Below, piece after piece: positions 10,501 to 64,000 of a DNA stretch of 64,000 nt. The notes below the pieces were generated by a model. That model searched no databases and was not told the DNA's origin. It saw only the letters and a list, made by a program, of their open reading frames with translations. Location: assembly GCA_964016885.1 (NCBI GenBank), contig OZ024757.1:13144001-13208000 (forward strand), in the 5' to 3' direction. Source of the stretch: Eledone cirrhosa. Lineage: Eukaryota. The position numbers were made by a program, and so were the translations under genes. Every line of letters starts with the position of its first letter. Position 1 is the first letter of the stretch.

Positions 10501-10520
10501 TAGACTTAAACCCCAACCTT

Positions 10521-19800: not shown

Positions 19801-20039
19801 CGTAGACTTAAACCCCAACACAAAGCCTTAGACTTAGACTTGAACACCAACCCCAAGCCTTAGAGTTAGACGTAAACCCCAACCACTAGCCTTAGACTTA
19901 GACATAAACCCCAACACCAAGCCTCAGAATTAAACCATAGCCACAAGCCTTAGACATAAACCCCTACCCTAAGCCTTAGACTTTGACTTAAACACCAACT
20001 CCTAGCCTTAGACTTAAACTTAAACCCCAACCACAAGCC

Positions 20040-21440: not shown

Positions 21441-21915
21441 AGGATTATACTTAGACTTAAACGCCAAAACAAAGCCTTAGACTTAGACTTGAACACCAAC
21501 CCCAAGGATTAGACTTAGACTTAAACCCCAACCACTAGCATTAGACTTAGACTTCAACCTCGACCCCCAAGCCTTAGACTTAGATTTAAATACCAATCCC
21601 AGGCCTTAGTTTTAGACTTAACCCACAACCCAAAGCCTTAGTCATATACATAATCCCCAACACCAAGCCTTAGACTTAGACTTATACCCCAACTCTAAGC
21701 CTCAGAGTTAAACCATAACCAGAAGCCTTAGACATAAACCCCAACACCATGCATTAGACTTTGACTTAAACACAAATCCTAGCCATAGACTTAAACTTAA
21801 ACCCCAACCCCAAGCCTTAGACTTAGACTTAATCCTCGACCCCGAAGCCTTAGACTTAGATTTAAATACCAACACCAGGCCTTAGACGTAGACTTAAACC
21901 ACAACCCTAAGTCTT

Positions 21916-40582: not shown

Positions 40583-41974
40583 GAATCCCAAGCCAAAGCT
40601 TAAAATTAAACCCTAACCCCAAACCTTCGATTTAAACTCAAACCCCATCACCAAGCCTTAGACGTGAACCCCAACGGCAAGCTTTAGACTTAGACTTAAA
40701 CTCCAACCCCAAAGGTTAGACTTAGATTTGAACCGCAACTCCTAGTCTTAGACTTAAACTTAAACCCCAACCCCAAGCCTTAGACTTAAACCCCAATCCC
40801 AAGCCTCAGACCTAGACTTAAAACCCAACGCTTAGACGTAGACGTAAACTTAAACTTAGACTTAGACGTAAACCCCAACTCCAAGCCTTAGATTTCAACC
40901 CAAACCACAAGCGTTATATTTAAACCCCAACCCCAAGCCTTATATTTAGACTTAAACCACAAGCCTTAGACTTAGAATTTAAACCCCAATCCCAATCCTG
41001 AGACGTAAAGTTAAACCCTAACCCCAAGCCTTAGACTTAAATCCTAAACCAACCCTTAGACTTAGACTTGAACCCCAACCACAAGACATAGACTTAGATT
41101 TAAACCCGAACCCCAAACCTTAGGCTTAAACCCCAACCACAAGTCTTAGACTTTGATTTAAACCCGAACCCCAAGCCTAAGACTTAAACCACAACCACAA
41201 GCCTTAGACTTAGACTTAAACCCCAACCCCAATTCTTAGAGTTAGACTTAAACCCCAACACCAACCCTTAGGCATAGATTTAAACCCCAACCCCAAATCA
41301 TAGACTTAGACTTAAACCTCAACCACTAGCATTAGACTTAGACTTAAAGCCAACACCAAGCCTTTAACTTTGAATTAAACCCAAAACCATAGCCTTAGAC
41401 ATAGACCTAAATCCAACACCAAGCCTTACACATAGACTTAAACCCCAACCACAAGCCTTACACTTAGACTTAAACATAAACCCCAAGTCTTAGACTTACA
41501 TTTAAACACCAACCCCAATCCTCAGACTTAGACTTAAACCCGAACCCCAAGCATTAGAATTTGACTTAAACCCCAAACCCAAGTCTTAGACCTAGACTTA
41601 AACCCCAACCCCAAGCCTTAGTCTTAGACTTAAACGCAAACTCCAAGCCTTAGACTTAAAATTAAATCCAAACACCAAGGCTTAGACTTAGATTTAAACA
41701 AACAAACCCAAGCCTTACACATAGACTTAAACCCGAACCCCAAGCCTTAGATTTAAACCCATCCCCAAGCCTTAGACTTAGACATAAACGCAAACCCAAA
41801 GGTTTAGACTTAGACTTAAACCCCAACCCCCAGCCTTAGACTTAGACTTAGACTTAAACCCCAACCCTTAGGCTTAGACTAAATCCCAACCACTAGCCTT
41901 AGGCATAAACTTAAATTTAGACTTAGACTTAAACCCCAACCTCAAGCCTTAGGCGTAGACTTAAACCCCAACCC

Positions 41975-42912
41975 AAGTCTTAGACTTAGACTTAAACCGA
42001 AACCCCAAGCCTTAGACCTAGACTTAAACACCAACCCCAATTCTTAGTCTTAGACTTAAACCCCACCCACTAGCATTAGACTTACACATAAACCCCAACT
42101 CCAAGCCTTAGAATTAAAGCATAACCACAAGCCGTAGACTTAAACCCAACACCAAGCCTTAGAGTTAGACTTAAATCCCAACCCCAACCCTTAGACATAG
42201 ATTTAAAGCCCATCCCTAAGCCTTAGACATAGTCTTATACCCAAACACTAACCCCAAGCCTTCGATTTAAACTCAAACCCCAACACCAAGCCTTAGAAGT
42301 GAGCCCCAACGGCAAGCTTTAGACATGGACTTAAACCTCAACCCCAAAGGTTAGACTTAGATTTGAACCCCAACTCCTAGTCTTAGACTTAAACTTAAAC
42401 CCCAACCCCAAGCCTTAGATTAGACTTAAACCACAAGCCTTAGACTTAGAATTTAAACCCCAATCCCAATCCTGAGACTTAAACTTAAATCCTAACCCCA
42501 AGCCTTAGACTTAAATCCTAAACCAACCCTTAGACTTAGACTTAAACGACAAACCCAAGCCTTAGACTTAGACTTACACCCCAACCACAAGCCTTAGACT
42601 TAGATTTAAACACGAACCCCAAACCTTAGACTTAAACCCCAACCACAAGTCTTAGACTTAGACTTAAACCGAAACCCCAAGCCTTAGATCTAGACTTAAA
42701 CACCAACCCCAATTCTTAGTCTTAGACTTAAACCCCACCCACTAGCATTAGACTTACACATAAACCCCAACTCCAAGCCTTAGAATTAAAGCATAACCAC
42801 AAGCCGTAGACTTAAACCCAACACCAAGCCTTAGATTTAGACTTAAATCCCAACCCCAACATTTAGACATAGATTTAAAGCCCATCCTTAAGCCTTAGAC
42901 ATAGTCTTATAT
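41975..42912 (+). repeat. ~265-bp direct repeat at 672-bp spacing, with a related copy at ~57510-57950
   Basis: CCCCACCCACTAGCATTAGACTTACACATA...TTAAAGCATAACC...ACATAGTCTTATA occurs at 42061 and 42733. The same markers occur at 57550-57720. Confidence 0.8.
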
Positions 42913-45900
42913 CCCAACCCCAAGCCTTAGACATAGACTTACACCCCAACCACAAGCCTTACACTTAGATTTAAACCCCAACGCCAAGCCTTAGACTTAG
43001 GTTTAAACCCCAACCCCAAGCCTCAGACTTAGACTTAAATCCGAACCCGAAGCCTTAGAATTAGACTTAAACCCGAAACCCAAGCCTGAGACTTAGAGTT
43101 AAACACAAATCCCAAGCCTTAAACTTAGACTTAAACCCGAACCTCAAGCCTTAGACTTCAACACCAAACCCAAGCCTTAGACTTAGACATAAACGCCACC
43201 CCAAAGGCTTAGACTTAGATTTAAACCTCAACCCTTAGCCTTAGACTTAGACTTAAACCCCAAATCCAAGCCTTAGACTTAGACCCTAACCCCAAGCTTT
43301 AGACTTAGACGTAAACCCCAACTCCAAGCATTAGACTTACCCTTAAACCCCAACACCCATCCTTAGATTTAAATTCTAACCCTTAGATTTAAACCTAAAG
43401 CACAAGACTTAGACTTAGACTTAAACCCGAACCCCAAGCCTCAGACTTAGACGTAAGCCCGAAGCACAGGCCTTAAAATTAGACTTAAACCGCAAACGCA
43501 AGCCTTAGACTTAGACTTAAACCCGAACCCGAAGACTTAGACTTAAACCCTAAATCCAAGCCTTAGATTTACACTTACACCCTAAACCCAAGATTTCCAT
43601 TTAGACTTAAACCCTACACCAAGCCTTAGACTTAGACTTAAACCCCAAACCCAAGCCTTAGATTTAGACTTAAACCCAAACCTTAAGCCTCAGACTTTGA
43701 CTTAAACCCCAACCCCAAGCTTTAGAATTATTCGTAATCCCCAACTACAAGCCTTACAATTAAACCATAAATACAAGTCTTAGACTTAAACCCAAACGCC
43801 AAGCCTTAGACTTAGACTTAAACCACAACCCCTAGCCTTAGACGTAAAGTTAAACCCCAACCCCTAAACTTAGACTTAAACCCTAACCCCAAACCTTAGA
43901 CTTAAACCCTAACACCAAGCCTTAGATTTAGACTTAGACCCCAACTATAAGCCTTAGACTTAGACTTAAACGCCAACCCCAAACCTTAGACATAGACTTG
44001 AACCCCAACTCCTAGCCTCAGACTTAAACTTAAACCCCAATCCCAAGCCTTAGTCTTAGACTTAAACCCCAACCCAAAGCCTTAGACATAGACTTAAACA
44101 CCAACCCCAAGATGCAGCCTTATACTTAAACACCAACCCTTAGACTTAGACTAAACCGCAACCCCTAGACTTAGACATAAACTTAAACTTAGACTTAGAC
44201 ATAAACCCCAACCTCAAGCCTTAGGAGTAGACTTAAATCCCCAACCAAAGCTTACATTTAATCCCCAACCCCAAGCCTTAGATATATACTTGAACACCAA
44301 CCCCAAGCGTTAGACTTAGACTTAAACCCCAACTCCAAGCCTTAGAATTAAACCCTAACCCCAATCCTTAGACTTAAATCCTAAACCAACCCTTAGACTT
44401 AGACTTAAACCACAAACCGAAGCCTTAGACTTAGACTTAAACCCGAACCCCAAGCCTTAGACTTAAACCCCAACCACAAGACTTCGACTTAGACTTAAAC
44501 CCGAACCCCAAAACTTAGACTTAGACTTAAACTCCAACCCCTTTTCTTAGTCTTAGACAGAAACCCCTACTCCAAGCCTTAGAATTAAACCAGAACCACA
44601 AGCCGTAGACTTAAACACAACACCAAACTTAGACTTAAAAGACAACCCCAAGCCTTAGACTTATACTTGAACCCCACCCACTAGCATTAGACTTAGACTT
44701 GAAACAAAACTCCAAGACTTAGAATTAAACCATAACCACAAGCCGTAGTCTTAAACCCAAGACCAAGCCTTAGACTTGAAACCCAACCCCAAGCCTTAGA
44801 CTTAGACTTAAACCCCAACCCCAAGCCTCAGACTTAGACTTAAATCCCAACCCCAAGTTTAGACTTATATGTAAACCCCAACTCCAAGGCTTAGAATTAA
44901 ATCCTAACCACAACACATAGACTTAAACCCGAACCCCAACATTCGCCTTAGACTTAAACTTATACCCAAGCCCAAGCCTTAGACTTAGACTTAAACCCTA
45001 ACGCCAAGCATTAGATTTATACTCACACCCTAACCCCAAGCCTTAGACATAGACTTAAACCGTAACCCATGCCTTAGACTTAGCCTTAAACCCCAACTCC
45101 CATCCTTAGATTTAAATCCTAACCCGTAGATTTAAACCCCAACCACAAGAATTAGACTTAGAGTTAAACCCCAACCCCAAGCCACAGACTTAGACTTAAA
45201 CCCGAACCCAAGCCTTAGAATTAGACTTAAACCCCAAACCCAAGCCTTAGACCTAGACTTAAACACAAAACCAAAGACTTAGGTTTAGACTTTAACCCCC
45301 ACTCCAAGCCTTAGACTTAGATTTAAACCCCAATCCCAAGCCTAAGACTTAAACTTAAACCCTAACTCCTAGCCTTAGACTTAAACTTAAATCCCAACCC
45401 CAAGCATTAGACTTAGACAAAAACGCCAACCCAAAGGCTTAGACTTAGATTTAAACCCCAACCCCAGCCTTAGATTTAGACTTAAACCCCAAACCCAAGC
45501 CTTAGACTTAGACTTAAACCCAAACCTTAAGCCTCAGACTTAGACTTAAACCCCAAGACATAGACACAGATTTAAACCCCAACATCAAGCCCTAGTCTAA
45601 GTCTTAAACCCCAACACCAAGCTTTAGAATTAGACGTAATCCCCAACTACAAGCCTTAGAATTAAACCATAAACACAAGCCTTAGACTTAAACCAAAACG
45701 CCACGCCTTACACTTAGACTTAAACCACAACGACTAAACATATACTTAGACTTAAACCCCAACCCAAAGCCTTAGACTTAGACTTAAACCCCTAACCCTT
45801 AGACCCCAAGCCTTAGCCCAACCCGTAAACTTAAACCCCAACCCAAAGCCTTAGATTTAGACTTAAACCCCAACAGACTTAACTTAGACGTAGATTTAAA

Positions 45901-47240
45901 CGCCAACCCCATGACTTAGACTTAGATTTACACCTCAACACCTGGACTTACACTTAGACTTAAACTACAACCCAAAAACTTGGACATAGATTTAAACCTC
46001 AACCCCAAGAATCCTCTACCCAAATCCTTAGAATTAGACTTAAACCCAAAACCGAAGCTTTAGACTTATACTTAAACCTCAACCCCAAGCCTTACACTTA
46101 GATTTAAACCCAACCCCAAGCCTTAGACTTAGGCTTAAACCCCAAACCTAAGCCTTAGACTTCCACTTAAAACCCAACCCCATGCCTTAGATTTAGACTT
46201 ACACCACAACCCTTACCTTAGAAGTAAAATTAAACCCCAACACGAAGACTTAGACTTAGATTTAAACCCCAAACACAAGCCTTAGACGTAGACACTAACC
46301 CCAAAACAAAGCCTTAGACTTAGAATTAAACCCCAACCCCAAGCCTTAGATATAGACTTAAACCTCGATCCCCAAGTCTTTAACTTAGATTTAAATACCA
46401 ACCCCAGTCCTTAGACTTAGACATAAACCCCAACACCAAACATTAGATTTAGTCTTAAACCCCAAACCCAAGCCTTATACTTAGACTTAAACCCAATCCT
46501 TAAGCCTCAGACTTAGACTTAAACCCCAAGACATAGACATAGATTTAAACCCCAACATCAAGACCTAGTCTAAGACTTAAACCCCAACACCAAGCTTTCG
46601 AATTAGGCGTAATCCGCAACTACAAGCCTTAGAATTAAACCATAAACACAAGCCTTAGACTTAAACCCAAACGCCAAGCCTTAGACATACACTTAAACCA
46701 CAACCCCTAAGCTTTAGACGTAAACTTAAAACCCAACCCCTAAACTTAGACTTAGACTTAAACCCTAACCCCAAGCCTTAGACTTAGACTTACACCCCAA
46801 ATATAAGCCTTAGACTTAGACTTAAACCCCAACCCCAAGCCTTAGACTTAGACTTGAACCCCAACTCCTTACCTTAGACTTAAATTAAACCCCAATCTCA
46901 AGCCTTAGACTTAGACTTAAACCCTAATCCCAAGCTTTAGACTTAAAGCCTAACCCAACCCCAAGCCTTAGACTTAGACTTAAACCCCAATCCAAAGCCT
47001 TAGACTTTGACTTAAAACCCCAACCCTTAGACTTAGACTAAACCCCAACCTCTAGCCTTAGACGTAAACTTAAACCCCAACCCAAAGTTTACACTTAAAC
47101 CCCAACCACAAGCCTTAGACTTAGACTTGAACCCCACCCTCCAAGCCTTAGAATTAAACCATAACGACAAGCCGTAGACTTAAACCCAATACCAAGCTTT
47201 AGAGTTAGACTTAAACCCCAACCCCAAGCCTTAGACATAC

Positions 47241-47461
47241 ACTTAAACCCAAACCCCAAATCATAGACTCAGACTTAAACCTCAACCACTAGCATTAGAT
47301 TTAAACTTAAAAGCTAACCCCCAACCCCAAGCCTTAGCCCAACCCGTAAACTTAAACCCAAACCCCAAATCATAGACTCAGACTTAAACCTCAACCACTA
47401 GCATTAGATTTAAATTTAAAAGCTAACCCCAACCCCAAGCCTTAGCCCAACCCGTAAACTT
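47241..47461 (+). repeat. 109-bp tandem duplication
   Basis: TCATAGACTCAGAC...AAAAGCTAACCCC...GCCCAACCCGTAAAC occurs at 47261 and 47370, with one SNP and one C indel. Confidence 0.9.
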
Positions 47462-49789
47462 GAACCGCAACCCAAAGCCTTAGACTTAGACTTAAACCCC
47501 AACCCTAAGACTTAGACTTAGACTTAATCCCCAACCTTAAGCCGCATACATAGACTTAATCCACAACATTAAGTTTTAGACTTAGACTTAAACCCCAAGC
47601 CTTAGACATAGATTTAAGCCCCAACCACAAGCCTTAGATTTAGACTTAAACCCTAAGCCCAATACTTAGATTTAGACTTAAACCCCAAGACTTAGGCTTA
47701 GACTTAAACCCCAACACCAACCATTAGAGTTAGCCTGAAACCCCAACTCCAAGTCGTAGACTTAGACTTAATCCCCAACCCGAATCCTTAGACTTAGATT
47801 TAACCCCAAACATTAAGCTTTAGACTTAGACTTAAACCCCAAGGCTTAGACGTAGATTTAACCCCCAACCACAAGCCTTAGACTTAGAATTACACCCCAA
47901 GTCCAAGATTTAGAGTTAGACTTGAAGCCCAAGCGCAAGCGTGAGACTTAGACTTGAAACCCAACCACAAGCATAATACTTAGTCTTAAACGCTAACCGC
48001 AAGCCTTAGATTAGAATATAACCCCAACCACAAGCCTTAGACTTAGATTTGAAACCCCAATCCCAATCCTGAGACTTAGACTTACCCCAAACCCAAGACT
48101 TACACCTAGACATAAACCCCAACCCCAAGCCTTAGGCTTAGACTTAAACCCAAATCCAAGTCTTAGACTTACACTTACACCCTAACCCCAAGCTTTGGAT
48201 TTAGACTTAAACCCTACCCCAAGCCTTAGACTTAGACATAAACCCCAACCCGAAGCCTTAGATTTAGACTTAAACCCGTACCCCAAACCCCAACTTCAAG
48301 CCTTAGATTTAGACTTAAACCCCAACCCCAAACTTTAGATTTAGACTTAAATCCCAACCCCAAGCCTTAGACTTAGACTTAAACACGAAACCCAAGCCTT
48401 AGAGTTAGACTTAAACCCCAACCCTAATTCTTAATCTTAGACTTAAACCCCACCCACTAGCATTATACTTAAAGCCAAAACCAAACCTTAGACTTAAACC
48501 GTAACCCCAAGTCTTAGACTTAAACCCCAAACCATAGCCTTAGACATAGACCTAAATCCCAACACCAAGCCTTAGACTTAGACTTAAACCCAAACATTAA
48601 GCTTTAGACTTAGACTTAAACCCCAAGCCTTAGACGTAGATTTAAACCCCAACCACAAGTCTTAGAATTAAAATTACACCCAAGCCCAAGCCTTAGAATT
48701 AGACTTGAAGCTCAAGCGCAAGCGTTAGACCTAGACTTGAACCCCAACCACAAGAATACGACTTAGACTTAAACCCCAAACCCCAAACTTAGACTTAGAC
48801 ATAAACCCCAACCCCAAGCCTTAGACTTAAACTTAAACCTCAACACAAAGCCTTAGACTTAGACTTAAACCCCAACCACAAGACTTAGACTTAGACTTAA
48901 ACCCCAACCACAAGCGTTAGACTTAGACTTAAACCCCAACCACTAGCTTTAGACTTAGACTTGAAGCCCAACCCAAAGCCTCAGACTTAGACTTAAACCC
49001 CAACACCAAGCTTTAGAGTTAGACGTAATCCGCAACTACAAGCCTTAGAATTAAACCATAAACACAAGCCTTAGACTTAAACCCAAACGCCAAGTCTTAG
49101 ACATAGACTTAAACCACAACCCCTAGCCTTAGACGTAAACTTAAAACCCAAGCCCTAAACTTAGACTTAGACTTAAACCCTAACCCCAAGCCTTAGACTT
49201 AGACTTAAACCCCAACCCTAAGCCTTAGACTTAGACTTGAACCCCAACTCATTACCTTAGACTTAAATTAAACCCTAATCTCAAGCCTTAGACTTAGACT
49301 TAAACCCTTACCCCAATCTTTAGACTTAAAGCCTAACCCCAACCCAAGCCTTAGACTTAAATCCTAAACACCAACCTTTAGACTTAGATTGAAACCACAA
49401 ACCCAATTCTTAGACTTAGACAGAAACCCCAACCACAAGGCTTAGACTTAGACTTAAAGACCAACCCAAAGCCTCAGACTTAGACTTAAACCCCAACCCT
49501 AAGACTTACACTAAACCCCAACCCCTAGCCTTAGACGTAAACTTAAACTTAGACTTAGACTTAAACTCCAACCATAAGCCTTAGGCATAGAGTTAAACAC
49601 CAACACAAAGCTTACACCTAAATCCTAACCCCAAGCCTTTGACTTAAACTCTAACCTTAGACTTAGACTTAAACCCCAACCCCAAAGGTTAGACTTAGAT
49701 TTGAACGCCAACTCCTAGCCTTAGACTTAGACTTAAACCCCAACACCAAGCCTCAGACTTAGACATAAACCCCAACCCATAGACTTAGA

Positions 49790-52700
49790 CTTAAACCCTA
49801 ACCCCAAGCCTTAGATTAGACTATAACCCCAACCATATCCCTTAGACTTAGATTTGAAACCCCAATCCCAATCCTGAGACTTAGACTTAAACCTAACCCC
49901 AAGCCGTAGACCTAAAGCCTGACCCCAACCCAAATCTTTAGAGTTAGAATTAAACTCTAACCCAAAGCATTAGACCCTAACCCCAACCTCAGGCATTTGA
50001 CATAGACTTAGACCTAAACGCCATGCCTTAGACTTAGACATAAACCCCAACCACAAGCATTAGATTTAGCCTTAAACCCCAACACCGATCCTTAGATTTA
50101 AACCCCAACCTCAAGCCTTCGGCGTAGAGTTAAACCCCAACCCAAAGCTTACACTTAAACCTTAACCCCAAGCCTTAGACTTAAACTTAGACCCTAACCC
50201 CAAGACTTAGACTTAAATTCTAAACCAACCCTTAGACTTAGACTTAAATCACAAACCCAAGCCTTAGACTTAGACTTAAACCCCACCCACTAGCATTAGA
50301 CTTAGACTTAAGCCAAAACCAAGCCTTAGACATAACCCGTAACCCCAAGCCTTAGACTTAAACCCCAACCCCAAGCCTTAGACTTAGACTTAAACCCAAA
50401 ACCATAGCCTTAGACTTAGACCTAAATCCCAACACCAAGCATTAGACATAGACTTAAACCCCAAACCCAAGCCTTAGACTTAGACATAAACGGCCCCCAA
50501 AGACTTAGACTTAGACTTAAACCACAAATCTAAGCCTTAGACTTAAACCCTAACCCCAAGCCTTAGACTTAGACTTAAACCCAAAACCATAGCCTTACAC
50601 TTAGACCTAAATCCCAACACCAAGCATTAGACATAGACTTAAACCCCAAACCCAAGCCTTAGACTTAGACATAAACGGCCCCCAAAGACTTAGACTTAGA
50701 CTTAAACCACAAATCTAAGCCTTAGACTTAAACCCTAACCCCAAGCCTTAGACTTAAATCCTAACCACAACATTTAGACTTAAACCCGAACCCCAACCTT
50801 AGCCTTATACCTAGACCTATAAACCAAGCCCAAGTCTTAGACTTAGACTTAAACCCTAACCCATGCCTTAGACATTGACATAAACCCCAACCACAAGCAT
50901 TAGACTTAGCCTTAAACCCCAACACCCATCCTTAGTTTTAAATCCTAACCCTTAGATTTAAACCCCAACCACAAGACTTAGACTTAGACTTAAACCCGAA
51001 ACCCAAGCCTCAGACTTAGACATAAACCCGAACCCTAAGCCTTAGAATTAGACTTACACCACAAACCCAAGCCTTAGTCTAAGACTTAAAGCCGAATCCC
51101 AAGACTTAGCCTTAAAACTCAACACCCATCCTTAGACTTAAATCCTAACACCAACCTTTAGACGTAAAATTAAACCCCAACCACAAGCCTTAGACATAAA
51201 CGCCAACCGAAAGTCTTAGACTTAGATTTAAACCCCAACCCCCAGCCATAGAATTAGACTTAAACGCGTACCCTTAGACTTAGACTTAAACCCTAACCCT
51301 AAGCCTTAGATTAGACTATAACCCCAACCACAACTCTTAGACTTAGATTTGAAACCCAATCCGAATCCTGAGACATAGACTTAAACCCTAACCCCAAGCC
51401 TTAGATCTAAAGCCTGACCCCAACCCCAATCTTTAGAGTTAGAATTAAATTCCAACCCAAAGCATTAGACCCTAACCCCAACCCCAGGCATTTGACATAG
51501 ACTTAGACCCAAACCCCATGCCTTAGACTTAGACATAAACCCGAACAACAAGCATTAGATTTAGCCTTAAACCCCAACAACCATCCATAGATTTAAACCC
51601 CAACCACAAGACATAGACTTAGACTTAAACCACAACCCAAAGACTTAGACATAGACATAATCCCCAACACCAAGCCTTAGAGTTAGACTTAAGCCCCAAC
51701 ATCAAGTCTTAGACTTCGACTTAATCCCCAAACCGAAACCTTAGACTTGGACATAAACGCCAACACAAAGGCTTAGACTTAGACTTAAACCTCAACCCCT
51801 AAACTTAGACTTAGACTTAAAATCTAACCCCAATCCTTAGACTTAAACACTAACTCCAAGCCTTAGACTTAGACGTATACCCCAACGCAAAGCCTCAGGC
51901 TTAGACTTAAACCCCAACCCTTAGACTTAGACGCAAACTTAAACTTAGACTTAGACTTAAACCCCAACCTCAAGCCTTCGGCGTAGAGTTAAACCCCAAC
52001 CCAAAGCTTACACTTAAACCTTAACCCCAAGCCTTAGACTTAAACTTAAACCCTAACCCCAAGACTTAGATTTAAATTCTAAACCAACCCTTAGACTTAG
52101 ACTTAAACCACAAACCCAAGCCTTAGACTTAGACTTAAACCCCACCCACTAGCATTAGACTTAGACTTAAAGCCAAAACCAAGCCTTAGACTTAAGCCGT
52201 AACCCCAAGCCTTAGACTTAAACCCAAACCCCTTAGACTTAGATTTAAACCCCAAAACCTAGCCTTAGACATAGACCTAAATCCCAACACCAAGCCTTAG
52301 ACATAGACTTAAACTCCAATCCCAAGCCTTAGACTTAGACTTAAAACCCAAACCCAAGCATTAGACTTAAATCCTAACCACAACACTTAGACTTAAACCC
52401 GAACCCCAACCTTAGCCTTAGACTTAGAACTATACACCAAGCCCAAGCCTTAGAGTTAGACTGAAACCCTAACCCATGCCTTAGACATTGACATAAACCC
52501 CAACCACAAGCATTAGACTTAGCCTTAAACCCCAACACCCATCCTTAGATTTAAATCCTAACCCTTAGATGTAAACCCCAACTTAGTATTAGACTTAAAC
52601 CCGAACCCCAAGCCTCAGACTTAGACATAAACCCGAACCCCAAGCCTTAGAATTAGAGTTACACCACAAACCCAAGCCTTAGACTTAGACTTAAAGCCGA

Positions 52701-52870
52701 ATCCCAAGACTTAGCCTTAAATCTCAACACCCATCCTTAGACTTAAATCCTAACACCAACCTTTAGACGTAAAATTAAACCCCAACCACAAGCCTCAGAC
52801 TTAGACATAAACGCCAACCGAAAGTCTTAGACTTAGATTTAAACCCCAACCCCAGCCTTAGACTTAGACT
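49790..52870 (+). repeat. Diverged tandem duplication of ~1.5-1.6 kb
   Basis: Markers occur twice in the same order: GATTAGACTATAACC (~49815/~51310), GGCATTTGACATAG (~49990/~51485), CCTTCGGCGTAGAG (~50115/~51975), AAAGCCGAATCCC (~51090/~52695). Boundaries are approximate. Confidence 0.8.
50367..50756 (+). repeat. 185-bp tandem duplication nested in the 49.8-52.9 kb duplicate
   Basis: CGGCCCCCAAAGAC occurs at 50491 and 50676 with matching flanks. Confidence 0.9.
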
Positions 52871-55800
52871 TCAACCCCAAATCCAAGCCTTAGATTTACA
52901 CTTACACCCTAACAGCAAGCTTTCGATTCAGACTTAAACCCTACCCCAAGCCTTAGACTTAGACATAAACCCCAAACCCAAGCCTTAGATTTAGACTTAA
53001 ACACCAAACCCAAGCCTTAGAATTAGACTTAAACGCCTACCCCAAACCCAAACCTCAGGCCTTAGACTTAGACTTAAACCCAAATCTTAAGCCTCAGAGT
53101 TAGTCTTAAACTCCAAGACATTAACATAGATTTAAACCGCAACTTCAAGCCTTGGATTAAGACTTAAACTCCAACCTCAAACTTTAGAATTAGACGTAAT
53201 CCCCAACTACAAGCCTTAGAATTACACCATAAACACAAGCCTTACACTTAAACCCTAACCCCAAGCCTTAGTCGTAGACTTAAACACCAACTATAAGCCT
53301 TAGACTTAGACTTAAACCCCAACCACAAGCCTTAGACTGAGACTTGAACCCCAACTCCTAGCCTTAGACTTAAACTTAAACCTCAATCCCAGGCCTTAGA
53401 CTTAGACTTAAAAAGAAACCCCAAGCCTTAGCCTTAGACTTAGACACCAACTCCAAGCCGCAGACTTAGACTTAAACCCCACACTTAGACTTCGACTAAA
53501 TCCCAACCCCTAGCCTTAGACGTAAACTTAAACTTAAATCCCAAACTCAAGCCTTACGCGTAGACTTAAACCCCAACGCAAAGCTTACACTTAAACCCCA
53601 ACCCCAAGCCTTAGACTTAGACTTTAACCACAACTCCAAGCCTTAGACTTAAACGCTAACCCCAAGCCTTAGACTTAAAATCTAACCTTAGACTTAGAAT
53701 TGAACCCCACCCACAAGCATTAGACTTAGACTTAAACCCCAACTCCAAGCCTTAGAATTAAACCATAACCTCAAGCCGTCGACTTAAACCCAACACCAAG
53801 CCTTAGAGTTAGACTTAAACTCCGACCCAACCCTTAGACATAGATTTAAACCCCAACCCTAAGCCTTAGACTTAGACTTAAACCCCAATCACAAGACTTA
53901 GACTTAGATTTAAACCGGAACCACACCTTTAGACTTAAACTCCAACCACAAGCCTTAGACTTAGACTTAAACTCCAACCCCAAGCCTTAGACTTAGACTT
54001 AAACCGGAACCTCAAGCCTTAGACTTAGACTTAAACCCCAACCCCAATTCTTACTCTTAGACTTAAACCCCACTCGCTAGCATGAGACTTAGACATAAAC
54101 CCCAACTCCAAGCCTTAGAATTAAACCATAACCACAAGCCGTAGACTTAAACCCAACACCAAGTCTTAGACATTTATTTAAACCCCAACCCTAAGCCTTA
54201 GACTTAAACCCCAACCTCTAGCCTTAGACATAGACTTAAACCCCAACCCCAAATCATAGATTTAGACTTAAACCTAAACCACTAGCATTAGACTTAGATT
54301 TAAAGCCAACACCAAGCCTTAGACTTAAACCGTATCCCAAAGCCTTAGACTTAAACCCAAACTCCAAGCCTTAGATATAGACTTAAACCCAAAACCATAG
54401 CCTGAGACATAGACTTCAACCCGAAATCCAAACCTTAGACATAAATTTAAACCCCAATCCCAAGCCTTAGACTTAGACTTGAACCCTAAATCCAACCCTT
54501 AGACTTAAAACCTAACCCCAAGCCTTAGACTTAAATCCTAACACCAACCCTTAGACTTAGACTTAAACCACAAACCCAAGACTTACACTTAGACTTAAAC
54601 CTTAACCCCAAGCCTTAGACCTAAACCACATCCTTAAACCTTAGACTTAGAAATAAACGCCAAACCAAAGTCTTAGACTTAGACTTAAACCCCAACCCTT
54701 AAAGTTAGACCTAACTCCAAGTCTTAGACTTAAACACTAACCCCAAGCCTTAGACTTAGATTTATATTCCAACCTCAAGCCTTAGGCGTAGACTTAAACT
54801 CCAATCCAAAGTTAACACTTAAAAACTAACCCCAAGCCTTAGACTTAAACTTAAACAGCAACACCAAGCTTTAGATTTGCAGGCTTTAGACTTAGACTTA
54901 AACCCCAACCACAAAGGTTAGACTTAGATTTGAACACCAACTCCTAGCCTTAGACTTAGACTTAAACCCGAACCTCAAGCCTTAGACTTAAACACCAAAC
55001 ACAAGCCTTAGACTTAGACATAAAAACCACGCCAAAGGCTTAGACTTAGATTTAAACCGCAACCCTTAGCCTTAGACTTAGACTTAAACCACAAATACAA
55101 GCCTTAGACTTAAACCCTAAACCCAAGCTTTAGACTTAAATCCTAACACCAACCCTTAGATTTAGACTTAAACCCCAACCCCTATACTTAGACGTAAATT
55201 TAAAGCCCAACTCCAAGACTTAGACTTACACTCCAACCCCAAGCCTCAGCCACTAGCATTAGACTTAGACTTAAAGCCAACACCAAGCCTTTAACTTTGA
55301 CTTAAACCCAAAACCATAGCCTTAGACATAGACCTAAATCCAACACCAAGCCTTAGACATAGACTTAAACCTCAACCGAAGCCTTAGACTTACATTTAAA
55401 TACCAACGCCAATCCTCAGACTTAGACATAAACCCGAACCCCAAGCATTAGAATTTGACTTAAACCCCAAACCCAAGTCTTAGACCTAGACGTAAACCCC
55501 AACCCAAGCCTTAGGCTTAGACTTAAACGCAAATTCCAAGCCTTAGACTTAAAATTAAATCCAAACCCCAAGGTTTAGACTTAGACTTAAACCCCAATTC
55601 CAAGCCTTAGAATTAAACCCTAACACGAGCCCTTAGACTTAGACTTAAACCACAAACCCAAGCCTTAGACTTAGACTTAAACCCGAACCCCAAGCCTTAG
55701 ACTTAAACCTCATCCCAAGCCTTAGACTTAGACATAAACGCCAACCCAAAGGCTTACACTTAGACTTAAACCCCAACCCTTAGAATTAGACTAAACCCCA

Positions 55801-58800
55801 ACCACTAGCCTTAGACGTAAACTTAAACTTAGACTTAGAATTAAACCCCAACCTCAAGCCTTAGGCGTAGAATTAAACCCCAACCCAAAGCTTACACTTA
55901 AACCCTAACCCCAAGCCTTAGTCTTGAACACCAACTGCAAGCTTTAGACTTAGAATTAAACCCCAAGCCCAAAGGTTAGACTTAGATTTGAACCCAAACT
56001 CCTAGCCTTAGACTTAGACTTAAACCCCAACCACTAGCTTTAGACATAGACTTGAAGCCCAACCCAAAGCCTCAGACTTAGACTTAAACCCCAAGCCTTA
56101 GAATTAAACCATAACCACAAGCCGTAGACTTAAACCCAACACCAAGCCTTAGAGCTAGACTTAAACCCCAACCCTAAGTTTTATACTTAGTCTTAAACCC
56201 CAAACCCTAGCCTTAGATATAGACTTAATCCCCAACCCTAAATCATAGAATTAGACTTAAACCTCAACCACTAGCATTAGACTTAGACTTAAAGACAACA
56301 CCAAGCCTTAGACTTAAACCGAAACTCCAAGCCATAGACGTAAATCTGAACACCAAGCCTTAGACATAGACTTAAACCCGAACCCCAAGCCTTAGACTTA
56401 AACCCCAAACCCAAGCGTTAGACTTAGACATAAACACCCCACCCCCCAAGCCTTATACTTAAACATAAAGCCGAACACGAAGCCTTAAAATCAGACTTAA
56501 ACCCGAAATCCAAACTTTAGACATAGATTTAAACCCCAATCACAAGCCTTAGACTTAGACTTAAACCCGAACCCCAAGCCTTAGACTTAAACCGCAAACC
56601 CAAGCCCTAGACTTAGACATACACGCCCCCCCCAAACCTTAGACATAGACTTAAATCCGAAATCCAACCCTTAGACTTAAAACATAACTACAAGCCTTAG
56701 ACTTAAATCCTAACACCAACTCTTAGACGTAGACTTAAACCACAAATCCAAGACTTAGACTTATACTTAAACCCCAACCCCAAGACTTAAACTTAAATCC
56801 CATCCCCAAGCCTTAGAATTAGACATACACGCCAACCCAAAGGCTTAGATTTAGACTTAAACCCCAACCCCCAGCCTTAGACTTAGACTTAAACCCCAAC
56901 CCCTAAACTTTGAGTTAGACTTAAACCCTAACCCCAAGTCTAAGACTTAGACTTATACCCCAACCATTAGACTTATACGTAAACTTAAACTTAGACTTAA
57001 ACCCCAACCCCTAGCCTTAGACATAGACGTAAACCCCAACCCCAAATCATAGAATTAGACTTAAACCTCAACCACTAGCATTAGTCTTAGACTTTAAGCC
57101 AACACCAAGCCTTAGATTTGAACCCCAACTCCAAGCTTTTGGCTTAGACTTAAACCCCAACTCCAAGCCTCAGACTTAGACTTAAACCCCAACCCTAAGA
57201 CGTAAACTTAAACTTAGATTTAAACTTAAACCCCAACCCCAAACATTAGACTTAGACGTAAACCCCAACTCCAAGCGTTAGATTTAAACCCAAACAACAA
57301 GCCTTAGACTTAAACCCCAAACCCAATTCTTAGTCTTAGACTTAAACCCCACCCTCTAGCATTAGACTTAGACATAAACCCCAAGCCCAAGCCTTAGAAT
57401 TAAACCATGACCACAAGCCGTAGATTTAAACCCAACCCCTACCCTTAGACGTAAAATTAAACCCCAACTCCAAGACTTAGACTTAAACCACAGCCTCAAG
57501 CCTTAGACGTAGATCTAAACCCCAACCCCAATTCTTAGTCTTAGACTTAAACCCCACCCACTAGCATTAGACTTACACAAGATTTAGAATTAAAGCATAA
57601 CCACAAGCCGTAGACTTAAGCCCAACACCAAGGCTTAGAGTTAGACTCAAATCCCAACACCAACCCTTAGACATAGATTTAAACCCCATCCCTAAGCCTC
57701 AGACATAGTCTTATATCCCAACACCAAGCCTTAGACATAGACTTAAACCCCAACCCCAAGCCTTAGATTTAGGTTTAAACCCCAACCCCAAGCCTCAGAC
57801 TTAGACTTAAATCCGAACCCGAAGCCTTAGAATTAGACTTAAACCCGAAACCCAAGCCTGAGACTTAGAGTTAAACCCAAATTCCAAGCCTTCAACTTAG
57901 ACTTAAACCCGAACCTCAAGCCTTAGACTTAAACACCAAACCCAAGCCTCAGAATTAGACTTAAACCCCAAACCTTAGACTTAGAGGTAAACTTAAACTT
58001 AGATTTAGACTTAAAACCCAACCCCAAACTTTAGACGTAGACGTAAACCACAATTCCAAGCCTTAGATTTAAACCCAAACCACAAGCCTTAGACTTGAAC
58101 CCAACCCCAAGCCTTAGACTTAGAGTTAAACCCTAACCACAAGCTTTAGATTAGACTTAAACCACAAGCCTTAGACTTAGAATTTAAACCCCAATCCCAA
58201 TCTTGAGACTTAAACTTAAAGCCTAACCCCAATCCGTAGACTTAACTCCTAAACCAACCCTTAGACTTAGACTTAAACCACAAACCCAAGCCTTAGACCT
58301 AGACTTAAACCCCAACCACAAGCCTTAGACTTAGATTTAAACCCGAACCCCAAGCCTAAGACTTAAACCCCAACCACAAGCCTTCGACTTAGACTTAAAC
58401 CCCAACCCCAAGTCTTAGAGTTAGACTTAAACCTCAACACCCACCCTTAGACATAGATTTAAACCCAGACCCCAAATCATAGACTTAGACTTAAACCCAA
58501 CACGAAGCCTTAAAATTAGACCTATACCCGAAATCCAAGCCTTAGACTTAGATTTAAACTCCAATCCCAAGCCTTAGACTTAGACTTAAAGCCGAACCTC
58601 AATCCTTAGACTGAAACCCAAAACCCAAGCCTTAGACTTAGACATAAACGCCCCCCAAAGACTTAGACTTAGACTTAAACCCCAACTCCTATCCGTAAAT
58701 TTAAACCCCAACCTCAAGCCTCAGACGAAGACTTAAACCCAAAGTCTTAGACTTAGACTTTAACTCCAAACCAAAGCCTTAGACATAGACTTAAACCCCA

Positions 58801-59206
58801 ACCCCAAGCTTTAGACTTAGACGTAAACCCCAACTCCAAGCCTTAGAATTAAATCCTAACCACAACACTTAGACTTAAACCCGAACCCCAACCTTAGCTT
58901 TAGACTTAGACTTATACCCCAAGCCCAAGCCTTGGACTTCGACTTAAACCCTAACGCCAAGCATTAGATTTATACTCACACCCTAACCCCAAGCCTTAGA
59001 ATTAGACTTAAACCACAAACACAACTCTTAGAATTAGACTTAAAACCCAAAACCAAGCCTTTGACCTAGACTTAAACCCCAACCCCATGCCTTAGACTTA
59101 AACCCTAACCACTAAACTTAGACTTAGACTTAAACCACAAACCCAAGCCTTAGACTTAGACTTAAACTCCAACCACAAGCCTTAAACATAGACTTAAACC
59201 CAAAAC

Positions 59207-60023
59207 TTAAGCCTCAGACTTAGACTTGGAGTTTGGGTTTAAGACTAAGGCTTGGGGTTATGGTTTCAGTCTAAATCTAAGTTTAGGGGTTTGGGTTTAA
59301 GTTTACGTCTAAGGCTAGGGGTTGTGGTTTAAGTCTAAGTCTAAGGCTTGTCGTTTGGGTTTAAGTCTAAGGCTTGTGTTTATGGTTTAATTCTAAGTAG
59401 GGGATTACATCTAATTCGAAAGCTTGGTGTTGCGATTTAAGCCTTAGTCTAAGGCTTGAGGTTGGGGTTTAAATCTATGTCTATGTCTTGGGGTTTTAGT
59501 CTAAGTCTGAGGCTTAAGGTTTGTGTTTAAGTCTAAGTCTAAGGCTTGGGGTTTGGATTTGGGGTATGGGTTTAAGTCTAATTCTAAGGCTTGGGCTTGG
59601 GGTTTAAGTCTAAATCTAAGGCTTGGGGTTGGGGTTTATGTCTAAGGCTTGCGCTAGGGTTTAATTCTAAATCGAAAGCATGGGGTTAGGGTATAAGTGT
59701 AAGTCTATGGCTTGGATTAGGGGTTTAAGTCTAAGTGTAAGCCTGGGGGTTGGGGTTTAAATCTAAGTCTAAGGTTTGGGGTTGGGTTTTACGTCTGAGA
59801 CTTGAGGTTCGGGTTTAAGTCTTAGTCTAAGTCTTGTGGTTGGGGTTTAAATCTAAGGGTTAGGATTTAAATCAAAGGATGGGTGTTAGGGTTTAATGCT
59901 AAGTATAATGCTTGTGGTAGGGGTTTATATCTATATCTTTAGGCAAAGGGGTTAGGGTTTAAGTCTAAGTCTAAGGCTTGGGGTTCGGGTGTGAGTATAA
60001 ACTTTAAGCCTCAGACTTAGACT
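59207..60023 (+). other. 20-bp direct repeat TTAAGCCTCAGACTTAGACT bracketing the inverted block (59207-59226 and 60004-60023)
   Basis: The same 20-mer, with the non-consensus combination TTAAG + CCTCAG, lies immediately left and right of the inversion. Confidence 0.8.
59228..60001 (-). repeat. Inverted ~775-bp block of the same satellite
   Basis: Abrupt switch to GGGTTTAAGTCTAAGTCTAAGGCTTGGGGTT (reverse complement of the consensus) at 59228 and back at ~60002. Confidence 0.98.
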
Positions 60024-63000
60024 AAAACTCCAAGTCATAGACATAGATTTAAACACCAACCTCAAGCCTTAGACTAAGACTTAAACCCCAACACCAAACT
60101 TTTAAATTAGACGTAATCCCCAACTTACAATTAAACCATAAACACAAGCCTTAGACTTAAACCCAAACGCCAAGCCTTAGTCTTAGATTTAAAGCACATC
60201 CCCTAGCCTTAGACGTAAACTTAAACCCCAACCCCTAAACTTAGACATAGACTTAAACCCTAACCCCAAGTCTTAGACTTAAACTCTAACCTTAGACTTA
60301 GACTTAAACCCCAACCTCAAACCTTAGACATAGACTTAAACCCCAACACAAAGCCTTAGACTTAGACTTAAACTCCAACCCCAAGCCTTAGACATAAATT
60401 TAAACCCCAACCCCAAGCTTTAGACTTAGATGTAAACCCCAACTCCAAGCCTTAGAATTAAATCCTAACCACAACACTTAGACTTAAACCCGAACCCCAA
60501 CCTTAGCCTTAGACTTAAACTTATACCCCAAGCCCAAGCCTTAGATTTAAAGCCTAACCCCAACCCGAACCCAAGCCTTAGACTTAAACCCCAACCACAA
60601 GTCTTAGACTTACACTTTAACCCCAACCACAAGCCTTAGACTTAGTCTTGAACCCCACCCACTAGCATTAGACTTAGACTGATACCCCAAATCCAAGCCT
60701 TAGAATTAAATCATAACCACAAGTAGTAGAGTTAAACCCAACACCAAGCCTGAGAGTTAGACTTAAACCACAACCCCAACACTTAGATATAGATTTAAAC
60801 CCCAACGCTAAGCCTTAGACTTAGACTTAAACCCCAACCCCAAGCCTTAGATTTAGACTTACCCCCCAACCCGAAGCCTTAGTCTTAGACTTAAACCCGA
60901 ACCCCAAGCCTTAGACTTAGACTTAATCCCCAAACTTAAGCCTTAGACATAGACTTAATCCCCAACATTAAGCTTTAGACATAGACTTAAAACCCAAGCC
61001 TTGGACATAGGTTTAAACCCCAGCCACACGCCTTAGAGTTAGAGGTGAAACCCCACACACTAGCATTAGACTTACACTTAAACCTCAAATCCAAGCCTTA
61101 GAATTAAATCATAACTACAAGTAGTAGACTTAAACCCAACACCATGCCTTAGAGTTAGACTTAAACCACAACCCCAACCCTTAGATATAGATTTCAACCC
61201 CAACCCTAAGCCTTAGACTTAGACTTAAACCCCAACCCCAAGCCTTAGACATAGACTTAAACGCCAACCCCAAGCTATAGACTTAGACGTAAACCCCAAC
61301 TCCAAGCCTTAGAATTAAATCTTAACCACAACCCTTAGACTTAAACCCGAACTCCAAACTTAGCCTTAGACTTAGACTTATACCCCAATACCAAGCCTTA
61401 GAGATAGACTTAAACCTTAACCCCATGCCTTAGACTTAGACATAAACCCCTACCACAAGCATTAGACTTAGCCTTAAACCCAAACACCCATCCTTAGATT
61501 TAAATTCTAACCCTTAGATTTAAACTCCAACCACAAGACTTAGACTTTTCTTAAACCGGAACCCAAGCCTTAGAATTATACTTAAAGCACAAACCCAAGC
61601 CTTAGACATAGACTTAAACACCAACCACAAGACTTAGACTTAGACTTAAACCCGAATTCCAAGACTTATATTTAAACCCCAACCCCAAGCCTTATAATTA
61701 GACATAAACGCAAACACAAAGGCTTAGATTTAGACTTAAACCCCAACCCCCAGCCTTAGACTTAGACTTAAACCCCAAATCCTGGCGTTAGACTTACATT
61801 TACACCCTAACCCCAAGCTTTCGATTGAGACTTAAACCCTACCCCAAGCCATAGACATAAACCCCAACCTCAAGCCTTAAATTTAGACTTAAACCTCAAA
61901 CCCAAGCCTTAGATTTAGACTTAAACCCAAACCTTAAGCCTCAGACTTAGACTAAAACCCCAAGACATAGCCATAGATTTAAACCACAACGTCAAGCCTT
62001 AGACTAAGACTTAAACCCCAACCCCAAGCTTTAGAATTAGACGTAATCCCCAACTTTAAACAATAAACACAAGCCTTAGTCTTAAACCACAACCCCGAAC
62101 CTTAGACGTAAACTTAAACCCCAACCCCTTAACTTAGACTTAGACTTAAACCCTAACTCCAAGTCTTAGACTGAAACCCTAACACCAACACCAAGCCTTA
62201 GACTAAGACTTAAACCCCAATCCAAAGCCTTAGACATAGATTAAACACCAACCCCAAGCCGCAGACTTAGACTTAAACCCCAACACTTAGACTTAGACTA
62301 AACCCCACGCCCTAGCCTTAGACGTAAACTTAAACTTAGACTTAGACTTAAACCCCAAACTTAAGCCTTAGGCGTAGAATTAAACCACAACCCAAAGCTC
62401 ACACTTAAACACCAACCCCAAGCCTTAGATTTTGACTTAAACCACAACTCCAAGCCTTAGACTTAGACCTTAACCCCAAGACTTAGACTTAAAATCTAAC
62501 CTTAGGCTTAGACTAAAACCCAACCCCACGCTTTAGACTTACACGTAATCCCCAACTACAAGCCATAGATTAAACCATAAACACAAGCCTTACTCTTAAA
62601 CCCAAACGCCAAGCCTTTGACTTAGACTTAAACCACAACCCCTAGTCTTAGGCGTTAACTTAAACCCCAACCCCAAAACTTAGACTTAGACTTAGACTTA
62701 AATTCTAACCACAAGTCTTAGACTTAGACTTAAACCCTAACCCCAAGCCTTAGACTTAAAGCCTAACCCCAACCCCAAGCCTTAGACTTAGGCTTAAAAC
62801 CCAATCCAAAGCCTTAGACTTAGACTTAAACACCAACCCCAAGCCGCAGGCTTAGACTTAAACCCCAACCCCTAACCTTAGACGTAAACTTAAACTTAGA
62901 CTTAGACTTTAACCACAGCTCCAAGAATTAGACTTAAACCCTAACCCCAAGTCTTAGGCTTAAACTCTAAACTTAGACTTAGACTTAAACCCCAAATCCA

Positions 63001-64000
63001 AGCCTTAGTCTTAGACTTGAACACCACCCACTAGCATTAGACTTAGACTTAAACCCCAACTCCAAGGCTAAGAATGAAATCATAACCACAAGCCGTAGAC
63101 TTAAACCCAACACCAAGCTTCAGAGTTAGACTTAAACCCCAACCCCAAACCTTAGATATAGATTTAAACCCCAACCCTAAGCCTTAGACTTAGACTTAAA
63201 CCCAAACGACAAGACTTAGACTTAGACTTAAACCCAATCCCAAAGGCTTAGAGTTAAACTTAAACTCCAACCACAAGTCTTAGACTTAGACTTAAAACCC
63301 AACCCGAAGCCTTAGACTTAGACTTAATCCCCAACATTAAGCTTTAGACAGAGACTTAAACCCCACGCCTTATCAATAGATTTAAACCCCAACCACAAGC
63401 CCTAGACTTAGAGTTAAACCCCAACCCCAAGCTATAGACTTAGACTTGAACCCCAACCACAGGCATAAGACTTAGACTTGAACTCCAACCCCAAGCGTTA
63501 GACTTAGACTTAAACCCCAAATACCCATCCTTAGATTTAAATCCTAACCCTTAGATTTAATCCACAACCACAAGACTTAGACTTAGACTTAAACCCGAAC
63601 CTCAAGCCTCAGACTTAGACTTAGACGTAAACCCAACCTGAAGTCTTAGGCGTAGATTTAAACCCCAACCTAAAGCTTACACTTAAACTCCAACCTCAAG
63701 CCTTAGACATAGACTTAAACCACAACTCCAAGCCTTAGACTTAAAATCTAACCTTAGACTTAGACTTAAATCCCAACCCCAAGACTTAGACTTAGACTTA
63801 AACCCAAGCCCCAAGCCTTAGACATATACTTAAACCCGAACTCCAAGCCTTAGAATTAAACCCTAACCCCAAGCCTTAGACTTAAATCCTAAACCAACCC
63901 TTAGACTTAGATTTAAACCACAAATCTAAGCCTTAGAGTTAGACTTAAACCCCAACCACAAGACTTAGACTTATTTAAACCCGAACCCCAAGCCTTAGAC

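What the first reader, a model, noticed from the sequence alone, without database searches (positions are those of the whole stretch)
59207..60023. The only inversion looks like an inverted templated insertion with a 20-bp target-site-like duplication
Seen: the only opposite-strand block in 64 kb (59228-60001) is flanked by TTAAGCCTCAGACTTAGACT on both sides. Uninterrupted copies of this module (~45520, ~46495, ~53085, ~61930) read approximately CCCAAACCTTAAGCCTCAGACTTAGACT-AAACCCCAAGACATAG. Removing the block plus one 20-mer therefore restores an intact module. The left junction shares a TT compatible with both orientations. Inference: this is not an in-place inversion but an insertion of satellite DNA from elsewhere. 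Candidate mechanisms are a double template switch (FoSTeS/MMBIR), polymerase theta-type templated repair, or reintegration of satellite cDNA/eccDNA at a staggered break. No poly(A) tail is visible, which weakens L1-type retroposition.
Basis: partly seen in the sequence, partly recalled or inferred. Interest (0 to 1): 0.75.

Follow-up and report, generated by a model that had tools for sequence, protein, structure and literature searches.

The report
Locally copied inversion in satellite DNA
A 775-base piece of a repetitive DNA array sits backwards between two copies of a 20-base marker and carries a third copy inside; it was most likely copied from the same or a neighbouring repeat unit when a DNA polymerase switched strands and came back slightly too early, a known kind of copying error with no sign of a function.

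Summary
In detail: one inverted block (59227-60001) lies between two exact copies of a 20-mer. (1) A third exact 20-mer lies inside the block (59498-59517, minus strand). (2) The block's first 281 bases are an ungapped, 91.5% inverted copy of the right flank; the two share an 8-bp deletion whose exact sequence occurs nowhere else in the assembly. (3) The whole structure is repeated 13,253 bases downstream in a very young tandem duplication. The 20-mer marks one position of an old higher-order unit, so removing the block and one 20-mer restores the normal order, whereas flipping the block in place does not. Best reading: an old template-switch or break-repair copy from the target unit or a tandem sibling, with re-entry 20-25 bases behind the exit ('4-before-1' switch, a miniature DUP-TRP/INV-DUP). 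It is not satellite 'from elsewhere'. Against the neatest version, the 211 bases left of the block do not match the block, and no public read was seen across the junction tested. The scan holds no look-alike note. Known mechanism, new example, no evidence of function.

The parts
1..64000 (+). Degenerate 32-bp satellite (26- and 20-bp deletion variants), part of a 183-kb array running from about -77,390 to 105,977 in window coordinates
58969..58995 (+). Rare marker unit Xs in the left flank; the same marker begins the inverted block
   Evidence: 8 hits genome-wide, 3 of them on another contig
58996..59206 (+). Segment Q between Xs and the left 20-mer; no specific homology to the block and no close paralogue found
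59207..59226 (+). Left copy of marker M (20-mer); exit point at 59226
59227..60001 (-). Inverted block, 775 bp; read on the minus strand it is Xs + X' + M + D, the normal order of the higher-order unit
59223..59234 (-). 12 bases across the left junction that are the exact reverse complement of 60025-60036; possible short fold-back step, or chance
59237..59497 (-). Inner D arm, ungapped inverted copy of 60024-60284, with the shared 8-bp deletion (near 59397)
59498..59517 (-). Third, inverted copy of marker M inside the block
59518..60001 (-). X part of the block (484 bp); best stringent local matches 82-93% over parts of it, on several contigs; spacer of the inverted repeat
59999..60003 (.). 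Right junction: AAA (59999-60001) readable in both orientations, then CT, either a diverged part of the duplication or a small insertion
60004..60023 (+). Right copy of marker M; re-entry point
60024..60284 (+). Right-flank D arm
61372..62188 (+). Sibling higher-order unit 1.9 kb downstream; shares the A after M and has an overlapping deletion; its ancestor is a candidate template
51856..64000 (+). First copy of a 13.25-kb tandem duplication (51856-65114 then 65107-78335) that carries the whole inversion twice; copies differ by 3 substitutions, a 2-bp indel and a 32-bp deletion

Best explanation
The block is an inverted copy of one stretch (Xs-X'-M-D) of the array's old higher-order unit, set between two copies of the marker M, and it most likely arose in one local template-switch event during replication or break repair. 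Inferred steps: synthesis stopped at the end of M (59226); the 3' end annealed through 2-5 bases to the opposite strand about 270 bases ahead, in this unit or a tandem sibling; it copied 775 bases backwards across a copy of M; it then returned through AAA 20-25 bases behind the exit point, so M was copied again. If the template was the target unit itself, the order of switch points is 3-4-1-2 and the product is a miniature DUP-TRP/INV-DUP with all three segments inverted; I give the same-unit and sibling-unit versions about equal odds. Shown later step: a 13.25-kb tandem duplication copied the whole structure. It is predicted to be a neutral scar.
For: Three exact copies of M: left, inside (inverted), right. 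M marks one position of a higher-order unit shared by arrays on contigs C8, C13, C14 and C18: 34 of 35 other satellite hits of M are followed by the start of D and none by Xs; 16 of 18 other satellite hits of Xs share one upstream context and none follows M (non-satellite hits and the junction copies left out). Inner D and right-flank D are each other's best hit in 664 kb searched, the only ungapped full-length pair, 91.5%; they group as sisters, support 90/86, among 18 rows (6 of 24 distinct anchors left out as truncated, twin or wrong-strand). The exact deletion-junction pattern has 4 hits in the 3.0-Gb assembly, all of them the block, the right flank and their twins; a looser pattern adds one more unit and its twin in the same array and none in four other regions, against 52 undeleted copies. 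A block-private 26-mer has only the 2 twin hits at up to 2 mismatches. Block start marker Xs also lies 238 bases left of the junction. Short overlaps at both junctions, at most 2 unexplained bases, no poly(A) or foreign DNA. The same satellite shows other fold-back scars: a perfect 48-bp inverted repeat at C8:31087909 and short hairpin-like inserts near C8:30956725 and C8:31092345. '4-before-1' switches that leave a direct repeat are described in apes (PMC7954356, passages).
Against: The 211 bases left of M (Q) show no specific homology to the block's X part: score 214.9 against a random mean of 207 (sd 15, n=150), rank 11 of 19, so the same-unit version needs later deletions or replacement in the left flank. 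By substitutions alone inner D is no closer to the right flank (91.5%) than to the unit at 46500 (91.8%); the sister signal rests on one deletion and one substitution, both possibly shared with the unit at 61934; tree support is below the tool's strong threshold. Three copies staying identical over 20 bases at this divergence has probability about 0.07 (0.34 if the duplication is 25 bases with 2 changes). The last 10 bases of the block (59227-59236) do not match the present right flank in register. No public record was laid on the left junction (0 in 4 of 4 runs). None of 5 other inverted blocks tested has a repeat abutting both junctions.
Confidence: 0.7

Rival explanations
1. A staggered break, for example one cut by a non-LTR retrotransposon endonuclease, left a true 20-25-base target-site duplication, and a locally derived satellite piece (remodelled break end, cDNA of a local transcript or a small circle) was ligated in backwards.
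For: Exact 20-base direct repeat abutting both junctions. L1-induced breaks give local inversions and inverted duplications with 4-15-bp TSD-like overlaps (10.1101/2024.12.14.628481, passages). Earlier notes report retrotransposon-linked inversions in this genome (unchecked here). The 12-base match 59223-59234 to 60025-60036 would fit a short self-annealing step at a broken end.
Against: No retroelement sequence or poly(A) at either junction, whereas the published cases carry an L1 piece. The block spans the position homologous to the break and continues beyond it on both sides, which a cut single molecule cannot template without a sister or sibling copy.
Confidence: 0.13
2. In-place inversion of a segment inside an array that already held three marker-bearing partial tandem copies; the flanking 20-mers are pre-existing paralogues.
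For: Re-inverting the block keeps the monomer register roughly intact at both ends; marker-bearing units cluster between 43 and 62 kb.
Against: Best of 225 breakpoint pairs leaves 8 + 8 mismatches per junction 60-mer, against 4 for the empty allele; 6 of 40 natural 60-mers reach 8. M followed by Xs was seen in 0 of 35 other M hits. Both breakpoints would have to fall on the edges of a marker found in about 0.2% of monomers.
Confidence: 0.07
3. Insertion of satellite DNA from a distant array or chromosome.
For: The X half has matches of 85-91% on C8, C13 and C14, as good as local ones; only 541,535 satellite bases were surveyed and a donor may have been lost by array turnover.
Against: The 8-bp deletion is confined to this array, the A after M is shared only by three units within 2.7 kb, and no near-identical donor exists in the assembly by pattern search.
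Confidence: 0.05
4. Assembly or library artefact (fold-back read, mis-join, or false duplication).
For: No record across the left junction; the indexed runs hold only 0.31-0.36 of the words; the twin could be two haplotypes placed in tandem.
Against: A fold-back artefact would be identical to its template, but the arms differ at 24 of 281 bases. Both junctions recur unchanged in two copies that differ elsewhere by 3 substitutions, 2 bp and 32 bp. Exact 151-152-base contigs cover block-private sequence 59622-59773 in 3 of 3 contig runs of one sample.
Confidence: 0.05

Closest known systems
Short-range template switch events, four-point model, '4 before 1' class (PMC5453318 and PMC7954356; passages read; supplements not read)
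   Same: One reverse-complement fragment between two switch points; re-entry behind the exit leaves a direct repeat; point 2 ahead of point 1 needs an inter-strand switch.
   Different: The copied fragment is 775 bases, against an expected length of about 10 in the ape model; it lies in a satellite, the ancestral allele is inferred from paralogues, and the template may be a sibling unit.
DUP-TRP/INV-DUP, haplotype structure 1 (PMC11293582; passages read)
   Same: Two junctions in cis, one tail-to-tail and one head-to-head; marker in three copies; duplication, triplication and duplication all inverted; 1-9-bp microhomology at a junction.
   Different: Sub-kilobase instead of kb-Mb; no pre-existing inverted low-copy repeats at junction 1; the upstream duplicated segment is not demonstrably a copy of the left flank.
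Small inverted triplications (SIT) and ODIRA products (PMC13334657, parts 1-3 of 8 read; PMC10766186 and 10.1101/2025.01.14.632981, abstracts only)
   Same: Direct-inverted-direct copies at small scale, short junction overlaps, replication origin.
   Different: In SITs only the triplicated piece is inverted (median 160 bp) and spacers are about 30 bp; here the triplicated piece is 20-25 bp and the jumps are about 270 and 240-490 bp.
L1-induced local inversions and inverted duplications with TSD-like overlap (10.1101/2024.12.14.628481; passages read)
   Same: Local genomic DNA inverted next to a short direct overlap; sizes near 1 kb.
   Different: No retroelement insert here.
Macro-dyad symmetries in Tribolium satellite arrays (PMC13081366; passages read)
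   Same: Orientation switches inside satellite arrays that are propagated as conserved inversion sites.
   Different: There thousands of copies and kb-scale subarrays; here two copies of one short block.

Membership tests
Four-point template switch event, 4 before 1 | Inserted fragment is the reverse complement of nearby sequence | tested here: inconclusive
   Met for M+D (281 bp, 91.5%, shared deletion) and for the first ~27-45 bases (Xs); not met for most of X against the present left flank.
Four-point template switch event, 4 before 1 | Direct repeat of the segment between points 4 and 1 on both sides of the inverted fragment | tested here: met
   Exact 20-mer abutting both junctions, extendable to 24-25 bases.
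Four-point template switch event, 4 before 1 | Ancestral (empty) allele known | not testable with these tools
   No second haplotype or relative is held; inferred from paralogous units.
DUP-TRP/INV-DUP | Triplicated segment with the middle copy inverted, two junctions in cis | tested here: met
   M at 59207 (+), 59498 (-), 60004 (+).
DUP-TRP/INV-DUP | Duplicated segments on both sides of the triplication (copy number 2-3-2) | tested here: inconclusive
   Downstream D duplicated; upstream segment shares only Xs with the block.
DUP-TRP/INV-DUP | [quoted passage not shown] | tested here: not met
   Only 2-5 bases overlap at 59222-59226; no other reverse-strand block in the 183-kb array except the twin.
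Small inverted triplication (SIT) | Only the triplicated piece inverted, with short (about 30 bp) spacers at fold-back junctions | tested here: not met
   Inverted block 775 bp, triplicated piece 20-25 bp, inverted-repeat spacer 486 bp.
Target-primed (retrotransposon-mediated) insertion | Poly(A) or retroelement sequence at a junction | tested here: not met
   At most 2 unexplained bases.
Target-primed (retrotransposon-mediated) insertion | Target-site duplication at an endonuclease-preferred site | tested here: inconclusive
   Direct repeat present; target preference of this genome's elements not tested.
In-place inversion | Re-inversion restores the ancestral order at both ends | tested here: not met
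   8 + 8 mismatches at best of 225 pairs; M-Xs adjacency in 0 of 35 other hits.

The most novel reading that the evidence does not exclude
This is a germline 3-4-1-2 inverted triplication of under 1 kb, copied across its own insertion site inside a satellite array and then amplified by tandem duplication: a snapshot of how orientation switches in satellite arrays are born by local strand switching, without transposons, and start to spread. The other fold-back scars in the same satellite would then be products of one recurring process that can be catalogued and dated with the array's own marker variants.
Probability: 0.3. Interest if true: 0.5.

Novelty: new member of a known kind. Interest (0 to 1): 0.3.

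Why it matters
Inversions inside satellite arrays are seen in long-read assemblies, but their breakpoints are hard to read because every position resembles every other. Here rare marker variants let the event be traced to a local template and ordered before a later tandem duplication. It also shows that a short direct repeat around an inverted block need not be a transposon-type target-site duplication. It is a single, apparently neutral event of a known mutational class, so its value is as a worked example and as a method for a wider catalogue. Seven full-text searches returned no paper in their listings that describes this exact anatomy in a satellite array; subscription papers are not covered.

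Tried and rejected
Whole-genome DNA search with 59150-60100 was not scored (too many candidates), so donor hunting rests on pattern searches and on BLAST of 664 kb. A first self-comparison printed no rows and was redone with exact words. Pattern searches for further strand switches found little: 0 hits, 2 places, 11 hits of which most are single-strand variants; one search gave 0 hits and was uninformative. Left-flank Q as a copy of X: not supported. Deciding between the right-flank unit and the unit at 61934 as template: unresolved three-way split, 90.5-91.7%. No Rfam family in 58000-62000. The region can fold into a long hairpin as single-stranded DNA (-296 kcal/mol, no shuffle control), which any inverted satellite block would do; not taken as evidence. 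G4-like motifs with one long loop are common on the G-rich strand (154 against 3); a role in fork stalling is speculation. Supplements of the cited papers were not read; the table of event types in PMC7954356 may show how common 3-4-1-2 events are.

Full report
Setting. The window is G000:C18:13144001-13208000 of a 3.0-Gb assembly. It is all one degenerate 32-bp satellite in an array of about 183 kb. Related arrays lie on contigs C8, C13, C14 and elsewhere on C18. I surveyed 864 kb, of which 541,535 bases are this satellite. The organism was not determined.

The observation. GC skew flips only in 59-60 kb and reverse-strand motifs cluster only at 59236-59985. The block runs 59227-60001. The 20-mer M is exact at 59207 and 60004, at 45527, 46500 and 61934, and on the minus strand inside the block at 59498-59517. 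M differs from the monomer consensus at only 3 bases, so the shuffle control overstates its rarity. The marker is still rare: 7 of about 3,470 monomers by a looser pattern, two of them the flanking copies, and 31 exact hits genome-wide. Having it at both junctions is not chance.

Higher-order anatomy. Writing each monomer as differences from the consensus shows an old unit with the order P, Xs, X', M, D, shared by arrays on four contigs. Of 35 satellite hits of M other than the left junction copies, 34 are followed by the start of D and none by Xs; of 18 satellite hits of Xs outside the block, 16 share one upstream context and none follows M (one and three non-satellite hits dropped). The locus reads P Xs Q M | reverse of (Xs X' M D) | M D. 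The left M lacks its usual downstream neighbour and the right M lacks its usual upstream neighbour. Removing the block and one M gives a junction with 4 mismatches in 60 bases to the best paralogue, as natural sequence does (mean 4.1, n=40). Re-inverting in place gives at best 8 + 8 over 225 breakpoint pairs; 6 of 40 natural 60-mers reach 8.

Where the block came from. Its M+D part is an ungapped inverted copy of 60004-60284 with 24 differences in 281 bases, and the two are each other's best hit in 664 kb. They share an 8-bp deletion: the exact pattern has 4 hits in the assembly, namely block, right flank and their twins. A looser pattern adds one unit at 3470 and its twin at -24815 in the same array and none in four other regions, against 52 undeleted copies. 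An A directly after M is shared only by the block, the right flank and the unit at 61934. A tree of 18 M+D copies makes block and right flank sisters at 90/86, below the tool's strong threshold. The block starts at the rare marker Xs, which has 8 hits genome-wide, one of them 238 bases left of the junction. A block-private 26-mer is found only in the two twins. The template was therefore local. Results against the neatest reading: substitution identity alone does not single out the right flank (91.5% against 91.8% for the unit at 46500; block, right flank and 61934 form a three-way split at 90.5-91.7%), and the 211 bases Q left of M are no more like the block's X part than random array stretches are. 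By eye, Q keeps monomer types that the block lost and the reverse, which fits later deletions but does not prove them. The template may thus be the target unit or a sibling within a few kb.

Junctions. Left: forward reading ends at 59226, reverse reading extends to 59225, or to 59222 with one common variant, an overlap of 2-5 bases. Right: AAA at 59999-60001 reads both ways, then CT, then M; counting these, the duplication is 24-25 bases with one inserted base or two later changes. There is no poly(A) and no foreign DNA. Unexplained: 59223-59234 is the exact reverse complement of 60025-60036, which holds two variants that the inner copy lacks; the 10-base core occurs 7 times on the window's plus strand. 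If this is not chance, the event began with a short fold-back, used a sibling unit for the long copy and may be younger than the arm divergence suggests.

Age and later history. The arms differ by 8.5%, about 4.5% per lineage, close to the spread among all copies of the unit (87-93%). Three copies of M staying identical has probability about 0.07, or 0.34 for the 25-base version with 2 changes. The structure was later copied in a 13.25-kb tandem duplication (51856-65114, 65107-78335) whose copies differ by 3 substitutions, a 2-bp indel and a 32-bp deletion, with both junctions unchanged. These could also be two haplotypes placed in tandem.

Is it real? A fold-back artefact would match its template exactly; this does not. 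Contigs of 3 of 3 indexed runs (one sample, which may be the source) cover block-private 59622-59773 with no differences. No record was laid on the left junction in 4 of 4 runs; the tool warns of filtered contigs and the RAD-seq run was no test. The junctions are thus not confirmed by reads.

Other switches in this satellite. One search lists 13 direct strand switches, 4 of them the focal pair and its twin. Of 5 other blocks tested none has a repeat abutting both junctions; the 5.3-kb block on C14 has a 32-base match set 56-72 bases away from them. A 539-bp block on C8 has a perfect 48-bp fold-back at one end and resembles its flank at 91%, and two short hairpin-like inserts were seen on C8. 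Local orientation-reversing copying recurs in this family, but the flanking duplication is so far particular to this event.

Mechanism (inferred). Synthesis leaves the template at the end of M, anneals by a few bases to the opposite strand about 270 bases ahead, copies 775 bases backwards, and returns 20-25 bases behind the exit. Point 2 lying ahead of point 1 requires an inter-strand switch, and point 4 before point 1 leaves a direct repeat (PMC7954356, passages; such events were not seen in the earlier study PMC5453318, passages). With a same-unit template the product equals DUP-TRP/INV-DUP haplotype 1 in miniature (PMC11293582, passages). It is not a SIT, whose proportions are the reverse (PMC13334657, parts 1-3 of 8). 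Replication and break repair cannot be told apart from sequence. A staggered, possibly retrotransposon-made break remains the main rival (10.1101/2024.12.14.628481, passages; lead from earlier notes).

Verdict. A real-looking, old, locally templated inverted copy with a re-copied marker, later duplicated: a new example of a known mutational class, with no sign of function. Confidence in local template switching 0.7; interest 0.3.

Noticed in passing
window 51856-65114 and 65107-78335 (L001-L002): 13.25-kb tandem duplication with 3 substitutions, a 2-bp indel and a 32-bp deletion between copies; true duplication or two haplotypes in tandem.
   Followed up: partly
window 29747-41868: Nested perfect duplications: a 6,050-bp period holding a 2,112-bp period, 0 mismatches.
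   Followed up: no
window 10521-14296 and -26942 to 23270: 1,884-bp perfect tandem duplication inside larger near-perfect duplications with shifts of about 22-28 kb.
   Followed up: no
G000:C8:31087968-31088506 (L040): 539-bp inverted block with a perfect 48-bp fold-back at one junction and 91% likeness to its flank; a second locally templated inversion in this satellite.
   Followed up: partly
G000:C8:30954108 and C8:31076725 (L027, L039): The same strand-switch junction, centred on a short palindrome, occurs twice in opposite orientation 122 kb apart, pointing to a large inverted duplication.
   Followed up: no
G000:C14:23907264-23912566, C14:23861567 and C14:23923879 (L057, L058, L072, L059): Strand switches that carry runs of telomere-like hexamers (likeness recalled, not tested); the 5.3-kb block has a 26-bp tandem repeat at one junction and a 32-base match between its flanks.
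   Followed up: partly
G000:C8:30956725 and C8:31092345 (L027, L041): Short hairpin-like inserts of about 10-25 bases that look like small template-switch scars.
   Followed up: no
window coordinate about -77,390 (L018) and upstream: The array abuts a different, very A+T-rich (21% G+C) repeat that runs for at least 20 kb.
   Followed up: no
L005:1980-3600 (window about 105,980-107,600): The array's other end is followed by a degenerate stretch whose frames recall a non-LTR retrotransposon (recalled likeness, not scanned against a library), then simple repeats.
   Followed up: no
window 1-64000: The monomer is built of related hexamers resembling the telomere repeat (recalled); the G-rich strand holds 154 G4-like motifs with one long loop against 3 on the other strand.
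   Followed up: partly
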